DNA of 49,053 nucleotides from contig JBGQNO010000004.1 of the NCBI GenBank assembly GCA_041501125.1, forward strand, positions 1-49,053. Direction: 5' to 3'. Source of the DNA: Candidatus Nanoarchaeia archaeon (GTDB lineage: Archaea; Nanobdellota; Nanobdellia; Pacearchaeales; GW2011-AR1). The notes under the pieces are model-generated. The model did not search any database and was not told the DNA's origin. It worked only from the letters and a program-made list of their open reading frames with translations. This document shows, in pieces, positions 25,359-25,604 of this stretch. The position numbers and the translations under genes were made by a program. Each line of letters opens with the position of its first letter. Within the stretch, counting starts at the first letter, position 1.

Positions 25359-25604
25359 TTGAAATTAATGCATAAAACTTTCAGACGCTTAATCAGCCAT
25401 TCCTTTGCTTATGAATGCTGTCTTTACATTCCGCAGTGTCAGAATTGTAAAATTCTGAACATGCTCAAAAATCACAAAGCAATCAAGATTTTTGACATGA
25501 GGAATGCTTTCAAGCGTCCACAGCAAGAGAATGTTAAAGATTAGTCAACCAAACATGCCGCTACTTACACCCAGATGGGTAAAATCGTTTAACCATTAAT
25601 TCTA
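25359..25604 (+). repeat. Dispersed element, longest copy (246 bp), with a structured interior
   Basis: Left end GAAATTAATGCATAAAACTTTCAGACGCTT, right end ...ACCCAGATGGGTAAAATCGTTTAACCATTAATTCTA; several internal 6-9 bp stems. Confidence 0.7.

What the first reader, a model, noticed from the sequence alone, without database searches (positions are those of the whole stretch)
25384..25518. Multi-branched structure inside the longest element: candidate ncRNA
GACGCTT/AAGCGTC closes a domain containing the hairpin CAGCCATTC/GAATGCTG (one bulge) and the stem CATTCC/GGAATG. The latter encloses TCAGAATT-GTAA-AATTCTGA (GNRA loop on +) and CATG.TCAAAAATC/GATTTTTGA.CATG. Five nested stems in 135 nt is unlikely to be accidental. 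I do not recognise it as a known ribozyme or riboswitch. It lies just upstream of argS.
Basis: partly seen in the sequence, partly recalled or inferred. Interest (0 to 1): 0.65.

Follow-up and report, generated by a model that had tools for sequence, protein, structure and literature searches.

The report
Nested hairpin repeats, not one RNA
The five-stem fold upstream of argS is real, but it comes from three small repeat elements nested in one another in a tiny DPANN archaeal genome, and related genomes lack the inserted middle part, so it is not a dedicated regulatory or catalytic RNA.

Summary
All five stems exist at the stated coordinates. The fold is strong (-40.3 kcal/mol, z = -5.0), equally so on both strands. 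It is a composite, not one RNA domain.

- **Outer layer.** 25384-25420 is module M2 of an older intergenic repeat, "P". P spans about 25364-25600 and has about 39 copies of its M4 module in this genome.
- **Middle layer.** 25421-25540 is a complete 120-nt copy of a "T" element. This family usually sits directly 3' of tRNA genes in Woesearchaeota-type archaea. It has its own closing stem, TCTTTACATTC/GAATGT(T)AAAGA, and a conserved hairpin, GGAAUGCUUUCAAGCGUCC.
- **Inner layer.** T carries a twin-hairpin repeat, "H2" (25439-25495).

Two related metagenome loci have the same gene order, with ArgRS 82-83% identical. In both, M2 joins directly to M4, and the 120-nt T+H2 block is missing.

They also compete with helices that covary across 44 family members.

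The conserved argS TATA box lies downstream of the whole block, so this is not an argS leader. Rfam has no match. The T and H2 families appear undescribed and behave as mobile elements.

The parts
25336..25353 (+). M1 motif GGCTCGCTGATGCTCGCC, a direct repeat of GCTCGC. It lies 19 nt after the stop of the Zn-ribbon ORF and belongs to the older repeat context, not to the fold.
   Evidence: It recurs after ORF or tRNA ends elsewhere in the genome. It is 18/18 identical at the orthologous site in L178.
25364..25378 (+). Left terminal inverted repeat of the P element, ATTAATGCATAAAAC.
   Evidence: Its reverse-complement partner is CGTTTAACCATTAAT at 25586-25600. It is present in other P copies and in L178.
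25384..25420 (+). P-element module M2.
   Evidence: More than 12 copies of ACGCTTAAGCAACCATTC... lie in the genome without any adjacent T element. M2 is present in L177 and L178.
25421..25540 (+). Complete T element (T1 subtype), a lineage-specific insertion. Layout: P1 5' arm TCTTTACATTC 25421-25431; junction CGCAGTG 25432-25438; H2 insert 25439-25495; CATGA 25496-25500; P3 hairpin GGAATGCTTTCAAGCGTCC 25501-25519; junction ACAGCAAGA 25520-25528; P1 3' arm GAATGTTAAAGA 25529-25540 with one bulged T.
   Evidence: Covariance model R1 scores it 45.8 bits, E 5.6e-10. The same architecture is seen in 11 other T1 copies. Folded alone, it gives exactly this structure (-33.5 kcal/mol, z -4.5). It is absent from L177 and L178.
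25439..25495 (+). Twin-hairpin H2 repeat nested in the T junction. It consists of TCAGAATT-GTAA-AATTCTGA (25439-25458), the linker ACATGC (25459-25464), and TCAAAAATC-N13-GATTTTTGA (25465-25495).
   Evidence: It matches the family pattern found in 8 of 121 related genera, with no hits for the reversed control. One genome carries 10 identical copies. Own-genome twins all have 6-nt spacing.
25547..25605 (+). P-element module M4. It holds the hairpin ACCC-AGAT-GGGT (25569-25580) and the right inverted repeat CGTTTAACCATTAAT (25586-25600).
   Evidence: nhmmer finds 39 copies. The stem covaries between subfamilies (ACCC/GGGT versus ACCT/AGGT). In L177 and L178 it is joined directly to M2.
25620..25634 (+). 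TATA-like box AGATTTATTAATTGT of argS (ATG at 25652). It lies downstream of all the repeats.
   Evidence: It is conserved as AAGTTTATTAAT at the same distance from the ATG in L177 and L178. The spacing fits a leaderless archaeal mRNA. The promoter role is inferred.
24563..24625 (-). Short-form T1 element directly 3' of tRNA-Thr(CGU) (24624-24696, minus strand). It is a second family member in the window.
   Evidence: R1 scores it 77.7 bits. It is absent in L178, where the tRNA is followed at once by the start of the next ORF.
24958..25034 (+). Second H2 twin hairpin (TCAAAAATC..GATTTTTGA, linker CACCTG, TCAGAAATTT..AATTTCTGA). It overlaps the 3' end of the DUF5652 ORF.
   Evidence: It is absent from the orthologous position in L178 (alignment A5).
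34797..34867 (+). T2-subtype T element that splits an M4 module of another P element, directly after the M4 hairpin.
   Evidence: R1 scores it 45.5 bits.

Best explanation
The 135-nt fold is a by-product of three small palindromic repeat elements nested in one another. It is not a single dedicated RNA.

**Layers.**
- An older P-type intergenic repeat trails the Zn-ribbon gene. It runs M1, left inverted repeat, M2, M4, right inverted repeat.
- In this lineage a 120-nt T element (25421-25540) was inserted immediately after the M2 hairpin.
- That T element carries a twin-hairpin H2 repeat in its internal junction.

**What a T element is.** It has an outer stem of about 11 bp with one bulge. It has two conserved junction strands, CCGCAGYGAG and CRCAGCAAGAG. 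It has an inner hairpin with a bulged A.

In Woesearchaeota, Pacearchaeota and Nanoarchaeota genomes, T elements normally start 0-3 nt after a tRNA gene on the tRNA strand.

**Inferred, not shown.**
- T is co-transcribed as a tRNA 3' trailer and removed by tRNA 3' processing.
- T and H2 spread as non-autonomous mobile elements into sites where they do little harm: tRNA trailers, tRNA introns and other repeats.
- The copy studied here is such a dispersed copy and has no argS-specific function.

M2 resembles that hairpin in reverse orientation.
For: **Composite nature.** BLAST and nhmmer split the 336-nt intergenic region into modules that recur independently elsewhere in the genome.

**Family architecture.** All 12 T1 copies share the same core. 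Their outer arms differ in sequence but stay complementary in every copy. Model R1 finds 21 copies in this genome, and 13 of the 39 tRNA genes carry one. It also finds copies in 12 of 121 genera of the family, most abutting tRNA 3' ends.

**Wider distribution.** A pattern scan of 185,579 species finds true copies only in Woesearchaeota, Pacearchaeota, Nanoarchaeota and Aenigmatarchaeota MAGs. Of 53 low-GC hits, 23 lie directly 3' of a tRNA.

**Covariation.** 96.5% of cells are paired, against 75.1 +/- 1.0 when shuffled and 36-49% when slid. 16 of 17 pairs have double changes.

**Empty sites.** L177 and L178 keep M1, M2, M4 and the TATA box but lack 25421-25540. L178 also lacks the tRNA-Thr trailer T and the H2 copy at 24958-25034.

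**Mobile behaviour.** One MAG has at least 7 near-identical T-bearing copies with unrelated left flanks. Another genome has 10 identical H2 copies on different contigs.

**Self-contained fold.** The T block folds into the family structure on its own, z = -4.5.

**Co-transcription hint.** A T4+ run lies within 20 nt of the tRNA end in 0 of 13 T-bearing tRNAs, against 16 of 26 T-less ones (p = 0.0003).
Against: - RNA status, co-transcription and processing are all inferred.
- No transposase, reverse transcriptase or Y1/RAYT enzyme was found in the 88%-complete genome. The mobilisation mechanism is unknown.
- No target-site duplication could be defined, and the insertion boundaries are ambiguous by 2-3 nt.
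- G.U pairs (12 cells) are no more frequent than A.C mismatches (10 cells) in the helices. The pairing constraint therefore cannot be assigned to the RNA strand.
- The covariation alignment was fitted to the model, which inflates pairing.
- T-bearing tRNAs have no oligo-T run right after T. T could have a real function, such as termination or 3'-end formation, and not be merely selfish.
- A precise deletion in the ancestor of L177 and L178 cannot be formally excluded.
Confidence: 0.78

Rival explanations
1. The T element is a functional module and not a selfish one. It could act as a transcription-termination, insulation or 3'-end-formation signal, as RNA or as DNA, used behind tRNA genes. Here it would be recruited behind the Zn-ribbon gene, so this copy would shape that gene's 3' end.
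For: - Orthologous tRNA trailers in different genera keep the outer stem through compensatory changes and keep the junction motifs invariant.
- T-bearing tRNAs lack the proximal T-run seen behind 16 of 26 other tRNAs, and usually have no T-run right after T either.
- All three copies nested in P elements start at the base of a hairpin, as tRNA copies start at the acceptor stem.
- The structure is equally good on both strands, as a bidirectional signal would need.
Against: - The distribution is patchy: 12 of 121 genera, and 13 of 39 tRNAs in this genome.
- T is absent from the orthologous tRNA-Thr and argS-upstream sites of a close relative, with no replacement.
- Bursts of near-identical copies occur in some genomes.
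- T occupies a tRNA intron in one genome.
- No archaeal terminator of this kind is known (own knowledge).
Confidence: 0.15
2. 25384-25518 would be one multi-branched non-coding or cis-regulatory RNA, possibly self-cleaving, serving argS.
For: It is the minimum-energy fold of the 135-nt segment, z = -5.0. Even in the longer context it is 2 kcal/mol better than the family fold. It matches no known family, so a novel RNA cannot be excluded on those grounds.
Against: - The two halves have different origins: orthologous loci lack 25421-25540 but keep M2.
- M2 occurs more than 12 times without a T partner.
- T occurs about 20 times without M2 and closes on itself.
- Nothing similar lies upstream of argS in 40 relatives.
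- The conserved argS TATA box is downstream of the block.
- The reverse strand folds equally well.
Confidence: 0.04
3. This is a DNA-level element. The hairpins would be extruded as cruciforms or single-strand folds and recognised by a recombinase or other DNA-binding protein, in the manner of integron attC sites. RNA would be irrelevant.
For: - There is no G.U over A.C excess in the helices.
- Fold quality is identical on both strands and with DNA parameters.
- Bulged bases sit at conserved positions in P1 and P3, as in attC.
- Behaviour is insertion-like.
Against: - The strict same-strand, 0-3 nt placement behind tRNA genes and inside a tRNA intron points to an RNA context.
- No candidate recombinase was found with the three families tested.
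- Tyrosine or serine recombinases were not searched for.
Confidence: 0.1

Closest known systems
Bacterial REP / BIME / REPIN elements (enterobacterial and Pseudomonas repetitive extragenic palindromes)
   Same: Both are short, imperfect palindromic hairpins present in tens of copies in intergenic DNA. They combine into mosaics and doublets (H2 twin hairpins with a fixed 6-nt linker), often sit at gene 3' ends, and nest within each other. Stems are conserved and loops are free.
   Different: REPs are mobilised by RAYT (Y1 HUH) transposases, and no PF01797 homologue is present here. The host is a DPANN archaeon. T has conserved internal-loop sequences and a variable, covarying outer stem, whereas REPs have a conserved stem.
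MITEs and nested MITE insertions (for example Sulfolobus SM elements, cyanobacterial nested MITEs)
   Same: The elements are non-coding and 50-240 nt long. P has terminal inverted repeats. Related genomes show presence/absence differences, one element sits inside another, and some genomes carry bursts of identical copies.
   Different: No target-site duplication and no parent IS or transposase could be identified. The ends of T are not conserved inverted repeats; they are copy-specific complementary arms.
Dicistronic tRNA-C/D box sRNA genes of Nanoarchaeum equitans (Randau 2012, PMC3491384)
   Same: A small structured RNA gene sits directly 3' of a tRNA gene in a DPANN archaeon. The proposed mechanism is co-transcription followed by release through tRNA 3' processing.
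   Different: T has no C (RUGAUGA) or D (CUGA) boxes and no guide regions (inspection). It is also found in tRNA introns and inside other repeats.
Transposition of archaeal tRNA introns between tRNA genes (Thermoproteales; Fujishima et al. 2010, recalled from memory, not read here)
   Same: Related short structured sequences turn up at different tRNA-associated positions. Here these are trailers in many genomes and a 37/38 intron in L074, with H hairpins in a tRNA-Thr intron.
   Different: T copies behind tRNAs are not bounded by a bulge-helix-bulge motif (by eye). This copy is not in a tRNA gene at all.

Membership tests
T element (unnamed tRNA-trailer structured repeat of Woesearchaeota-type DPANN archaea) | An outer stem of about 11 bp whose sequence differs between copies, with a single bulged base 5 bp from its base on the 3' arm | tested here: met
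   TCTTTACATTC (25421-25431) pairs with GAATG-T-TAAAGA (25529-25540). The bulge sits at the family position.
T element (unnamed tRNA-trailer structured repeat of Woesearchaeota-type DPANN archaea) | Conserved junction strands CCGCAGYGAG (5') and CRCAGCAAGAG (3') | tested here: met
   The 5' strand reads TCCGCAG-TG...[H2]...CA-TGAGG and is split by the H2 insert, as in four other long-form copies. The 3' strand is CACAGCAAGAG, which is exact.
T element (unnamed tRNA-trailer structured repeat of Woesearchaeota-type DPANN archaea) | Inner hairpin GGA(A)N.../...NUCC with a bulged A (T1 subtype: GGAAUGYNNNCANRCRUCC) | tested here: met
   GGAATGCTTTCAAGCGTCC at 25501-25519. The 31-nt core is identical to the tRNA-Ala trailer copy at C1:132354-132415.
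T element (unnamed tRNA-trailer structured repeat of Woesearchaeota-type DPANN archaea) | A significant score against the covariance model built from the short forms | tested here: met
   45.8 bits, E 5.6e-10 genome-wide. The model misplaces the 5' arm because of the 62-nt insert.
T element (unnamed tRNA-trailer structured repeat of Woesearchaeota-type DPANN archaea) | Position 0-3 nt 3' of a tRNA gene, on the same strand | tested here: not met
   There is no tRNA upstream (ARAGORN and Rfam). The copy follows the M2 hairpin of a P element. This position is typical of the family, not universal: 6 of about 19 own-genome copies are also not behind a tRNA.
H2 twin-hairpin repeat | Two hairpins with stems TCARAAWT / AWTTYTGA-type, joined by a 6-nt linker ending in TGC, with free loops | tested here: met
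   25439-25495 matches the pattern exactly. The pattern is found in 8 of 121 genera, and the reversed control finds nothing.
P intergenic repeat of this genome | Terminal inverted repeats ATTAATGnnTAAAAC / GTTTnAnCATTAAT enclosing modules M2 and M4 | tested here: met
   The orthologous copy is in L178.
Any Rfam 15 family, including self-cleaving ribozymes and riboswitches | A covariance-model match at the gathering score, or at least a suggestive E-value | tested here: not met
   The only hit in the window is tRNA-Thr. Nothing overlaps 25360-25545 at E <= 10.
REP/REPIN | An associated RAYT (Y1_Tnp, PF01797) transposase in the genome | tested here: not met
   No match in the 88%-complete genome, while the controls were positive.
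MITE | A target-site duplication and a related autonomous IS element | tested here: inconclusive
   No duplication can be defined at the T insertion. No Y1, TnpB or RT was found. DDE transposases were not searched for.
Archaeal C/D box sRNA (tRNA-linked) | C box RUGAUGA and D box CUGA at the ends, with guide sequences between them | tested here: not met
   The short T forms have no such boxes (inspection of the sequences).

The most novel reading that the evidence does not exclude
T and H2 could be a previously undescribed class of transposase-less mobile elements in DPANN archaea. They would be structure-defined and would spread through the tRNA-processing world, as RNA or folded single-stranded intermediates that use the host's tRNA endonuclease, RtcB ligase or RNase Z. 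They would colonise tRNA trailers, tRNA introns and each other, and could be a source of new archaeal tRNA introns. The invariant junction of T (CCGCAGYGAG / CRCAGCAAGAG) would then be the recognition or catalytic core of that process.
Probability: 0.12. Interest if true: 0.8.

Novelty: new variant of a known kind. Interest (0 to 1): 0.42.

Why it matters
For this finding, the result removes a false lead. An impressive five-stem fold with z = -5 just upstream of an aminoacyl-tRNA synthetase gene is neither a riboswitch nor a ribozyme. It is what nested palindromic repeats look like to a folding program.

The loci give clean empty-site evidence that two apparently undescribed repeat families were gained recently. 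One is the tRNA-trailing T element and the other is the twin-hairpin H2 element. The gain happened in a 0.6-Mb symbiont-type archaeal genome where none of the three mobilisation enzyme families tested was found.

Such tiny genomes are usually considered streamlined. Active structured mini-elements that live in tRNA trailers, tRNA introns and each other bear on two questions: how archaeal tRNA genes acquire introns and trailers, and how repeats persist under strong genome reduction.

Tried and rejected
- **Rfam.** The scan at gathering thresholds and the permissive scan of 24500-25700 gave nothing for the element. A scan upstream of the C5:40336 copy found no hidden tRNA.
- **Alignment of long and short T forms.** MAFFT misplaced the 5' arms, so the model was built from the 7 natural short forms. 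In the model alignment (A3) the long forms are still misaligned at the 5' arm, and I left them out of my own G.U/A.C count.
- **BLAST in relatives.** The intergenic region found nothing useful in 40 relatives.
- **Motif comparisons by eye.** I compared the T junction with hammerhead, K-turn, C/D box, H/ACA and bulge-helix-bulge consensus motifs. None fits. These were not formal tests.
- **Strand of selection.** The G.U versus A.C count showed no asymmetry, 12 versus 10 cells.
- **Mobilising enzymes.** There is no Y1 transposase and no reverse transcriptase. TnpB gave only sub-threshold zinc-ribbon hits.
- **Viral contigs.** Scans for the T and H2 patterns gave only chance hits in GC-rich coding DNA.
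- **Empty site for the L178 H2 copy.** The alignment downstream of argS was too diverged to define one.
- **Earlier notes.** Look-ups by sequence returned nothing.

Full report
**Context.** The window is contig C4 of a 625-kb, 16-contig genome that is 88% complete and 37.5% G+C. It has many intron-bearing tRNA genes. Its relatives are labelled Woesearchaeota, Pacearchaeota or Nanoarchaeota. The finding lies in a 335-nt spacer, 25317-25651. On its left is a 73-aa zinc-ribbon ORF (25095-25316, +). On its right is argS (ATG 25652, ending 27316, +; Pfam tRNA-synt_1d, DALR_1 and Arg_tRNA_synt_N).

**Observation.** All five stems are present at the stated positions.
- The opposite strand does as well: -45.2 kcal/mol, z = -5.1.
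- Against 1590 non-coding 135-nt windows of the same genome (mean -22.7, sd 7.2), the value is among the 25 best. The company there is rRNA and other copies of the same repeats.

The strand symmetry already hints at palindromic DNA and not at a strand-specific RNA.

**The spacer is a mosaic.** BLAST of the spacer against its own genome gives 27 partial hits, and these fall into separate blocks. Iterative nhmmer finds 39 copies of the right-hand block M4 (25547-25605) and 12 of the block around 25488-25545. Elsewhere the usual arrangement is M1, ATTAATG..., M2, M4...CATTAAT with nothing between M2 and M4.

**The T element.** Printing the 12 copies of the 25488-25545 block with their flanks shows a common architecture:
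- a 5' arm of about 11 nt that differs from copy to copy;
- the junction CGCAG(Y);
- in five copies, an insert;
- (CA)YGA, then the hairpin GGA(A)UGYN-NNCA-NRCRUCC;
- the junction RCAGNAAGAG;
- a 3' arm complementary to that copy's own 5' arm, with one bulged base.

Eight of the 12 begin 0-3 nt after a tRNA gene, or directly after a duplicated tRNA 3' end or behind the insert. One of these follows tRNA-Thr(CGU) in this window (24563-24625, minus strand).

**Family census.**
- A covariance model of the seven natural short forms (R1) finds 21 copies in the genome. These include a second subtype, T2, behind tRNA-Val, -Asp and -Ala, and a copy at 34797-34867 in this window.
- In total 13 of the 39 tRNA genes carry a T element.
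- R1 also finds copies in 12 of 121 genera of the same family, most of them abutting a tRNA 3' end.
- A pattern scan of one genome per prokaryotic species finds true copies only in Woesearchaeota, Pacearchaeota, Nanoarchaeota and Aenigmatarchaeota MAGs. Of 53 low-G+C hits, 23 are directly 3' of an ARAGORN tRNA. The remaining hits are chance matches in G+C-rich bacterial DNA.

**Covariation.** On the 44 distinct aligned copies:
- 96.5% of cells are paired, against 75.1 +/- 1.0 after shuffling and 36-49% when partners are slid;
- 16 of 17 pairs show changes on both sides;
- there are 156 double-change cells, against 43 +/- 6.

The alignment was fitted to the model, so these figures lean towards the structure. 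Even so, the contrast is large. The outer arms visibly differ between copies while staying complementary.

**The window copy.** In the window the T unit is 25421-25540:

| Part | Sequence | Coordinates |
|---|---|---|
| P1 5' arm | TCTTTACATTC | 25421-25431 |
| Junction | CGCAGTG | 25432-25438 |
| H2 insert | twin hairpin | 25439-25495 |
| Junction | CATGA | 25496-25500 |
| P3 hairpin | GGAATGCTTTCAAGCGTCC | 25501-25519 |
| Junction | ACAGCAAGA | 25520-25528 |
| P1 3' arm | GAATGTTAAAGA | 25529-25540 |

The P1 bulge sits at the family position. Folded alone, this 120-nt segment gives exactly the family structure (-33.5 kcal/mol, z = -4.5). The reverse strand with DNA parameters gives the same z.

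**The two inner hairpins.** They are one copy of a third family, H2. Its form is TCARAAWT-loop-AWTTYTGA, a 6-nt linker ending in TGC, then TCARRAW-loop-WTYYTGA.
- The genome holds about 30 such hairpins. Eight stand-alone pairs are spaced by exactly 6 nt.
- One pair splits an M4 module. One pair follows tRNA-Thr(GGU), and a single hairpin lies in that tRNA's intron. One pair is at 24958-25034 in this window.
- The twin pattern occurs in 8 of 121 related genera, with zero hits for the reversed control. One genome has 10 identical copies on different contigs and another has 13 copies.
- Loops vary freely in this family, so the GUAA loop is incidental.

**Empty sites.** Searching metagenome contigs with ArgRS gave L178 (83% identical protein, same gene order: tRNA-Thr / DUF5652 / Zn-ribbon / argS) and L177 (82%).
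- Both keep M2 (GACGCTTAA.CAAC.ATTC...), M4 and the TATA-like box before argS. L178 also keeps M1, 18 of 18 identical.
- In both, M2 runs straight into M4. The 120 nt of T plus H2 are missing (alignment A4), and R1 finds nothing in L177 or L178.
- L178 also lacks the H2 pair at 24958-25034. In the window that pair rewrites the C-terminus of the DUF5652 protein.
- L178 also lacks the T element behind tRNA-Thr. There the next ORF starts 1-2 nt after the tRNA.

Three insertions within 1 kb relative to one relative is insertion-type behaviour. So are the bursts of identical copies in other genomes. A precise deletion of a whole repeat unit in the other lineage is possible but less parsimonious.

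GACGCTT (25384-25390) and the M2 hairpin belong to the ancestral P element. AAGCGTC and GGAATG are the two arms of the T element's own covarying hairpin. CATTCC overlaps the T outer stem. The two closing stems therefore join parts of different age and compete with supported helices.
- The complementarity is probably not pure chance. M2 (GACGCTT-N7-CATTCC) resembles the reverse complement of the T hairpin (GGACGCTT-N5-CATTCC), and the M2 consensus shares GCTT...CATTC. Whether this reflects common ancestry is an inference.

**Relation to argS.** The box AGATTTATTAATTGT (25620-25634) lies about 25 nt before the ATG. It is conserved in L177 and L178 at the same distance. That spacing is typical of a TATA box driving a leaderless archaeal mRNA (established knowledge; the assignment here is inferred). 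The repeats lie upstream of it. They are more likely in the 3' trailer of the Zn-ribbon transcript than in the argS mRNA. Nothing similar precedes argS in 40 relatives.

**What T does.**
- *Shown:* a conserved, covarying structure; invariant junction strands; same-strand placement at tRNA 3' ends over a wide taxonomic range; occupancy of a 37/38 intron of a tRNA-Ile-like gene in one MAG (read by eye); gain or loss between close relatives.
- *Also shown:* a T4+ run lies within 20 nt of the tRNA end in 0 of 13 T-bearing tRNAs, against 16 of 26 T-less ones (Fisher p = 0.0003).
- *Inferred:* T is transcribed with the tRNA and cut off during 3' maturation. It spreads to positions where it is removed or harmless.
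- *Against a purely RNA-level constraint:* G.U pairs (12) do not outnumber A.C mismatches (10).
- *Against a simple transposon:* no Y1 transposase, TnpB or reverse transcriptase was found, and no target duplication is visible.

A functional role in termination or 3'-end formation remains a live rival.

**Known relatives.** Rfam has no match. Three literature searches returned no description of such elements. They did return the N. equitans paper on dicistronic tRNA-sRNA genes (PMC3491384), which is the closest mechanistic parallel for tRNA-trailing RNAs. Bacterial REP/BIME/REPIN mosaics and nested MITEs are the closest parallels for the behaviour. Earlier notes of this scan describe a tRNA-trailer hairpin family in this genome and a mobile double-hairpin family in other DPANN genomes. 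I reached both from the sequence and tested them here.

**Verdict.** The fold is real but ordinary in origin: H2 nested in T nested in P. As a candidate ribozyme or riboswitch it fails. Its value is as a clean example, with empty sites, of undescribed structured mini-repeats active in a reduced archaeal genome.

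Noticed in passing
window 24563-24625 (-), and L178 1660-1680: The T element behind tRNA-Thr(CGU) fills the 66 nt between the tRNA and the next ORF (ATG at 24557). In the relative L178 the orthologous 64-aa ORF starts 1-2 nt after the tRNA, with no T element. This suggests a tRNA-mRNA co-transcript in the relative.
   Followed up: partly
window 24958-25034 (+): An H2 twin hairpin overlaps the last codons of the DUF5652 ORF (24758-24985) and changes its C-terminus relative to L178, which lacks the insert.
   Followed up: partly
window 34797-34867 (+); genome C5:27698-27768: Two T2-type elements each split an M4 module of a P element at the same point, directly after the M4 hairpin AACCTCGCAAGG. 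All three T copies nested in P elements start at the base of a hairpin and share the P orientation.
   Followed up: partly
39 M4 copies genome-wide, including window 8201-8240 (-), 8295-8339 (+) and 41516-41564 (+): On a crude ORF map, the CATTAATTCT end of M4 lies 6-57 nt from the stop codon of a convergent gene in about 28 of 39 copies. M1 follows the stops of same-strand genes. P may therefore be a two-sided element of gene 3' ends.
   Followed up: partly
window 25336-25353; L178 2321-2338: The M1 motif GGCTCGCTGATGCTCGCC is 18/18 identical between the window and a relative whose ArgRS is only 83% identical. An inverted variant, GCGAGCCATCAGGCGAGC, flanks the other end of some P copies (C1:52130, C9:23350, C3:19010).
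   Followed up: no
L074 1160-1320 (Woesearchaeota MAG CAZOEF010000002): A tRNA-Ile(GAU)-like gene that ARAGORN misses carries a complete T element inside an intron of about 115 nt at position 37/38.
   Followed up: partly
L066, L091, L105, L127, L136, L147, L159 (MAG CAZKON01, SRP269290_co3_1061): At least seven near-identical copies of a longer T-bearing repeat (…CGAGTTAGCGCAGCGACT-T core-AGGAACGAGAGGGTATAATGG…) have unrelated left flanks. This looks like a recent burst.
   Followed up: no
genome C3:35650-35880: tRNA-Val is followed by a second copy of its own 3' end (CCTCGTGGGTCCA) about 100 nt downstream. The T element follows the second copy, not the tRNA itself.
   Followed up: no
L178 4406-4475: The relative has an H2 twin hairpin downstream of argS where the window has none. 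The family is therefore gained or lost in both lineages. The flanks were too diverged to define the empty site.
   Followed up: partly
genome C3:40485-40605, C5:40283-40388, C6:4083-4203, C6:17104-17215: Four other long-form T1 copies carry a different twin hairpin (TGAGAAAACC-TTT-GGTTTTCGA, linker GGTGC, TCAGAAATTC..GAATTTCTGA) at exactly the same junction as the window copy. This is either an insertion hot spot or a propagated subfamily.
   Followed up: partly
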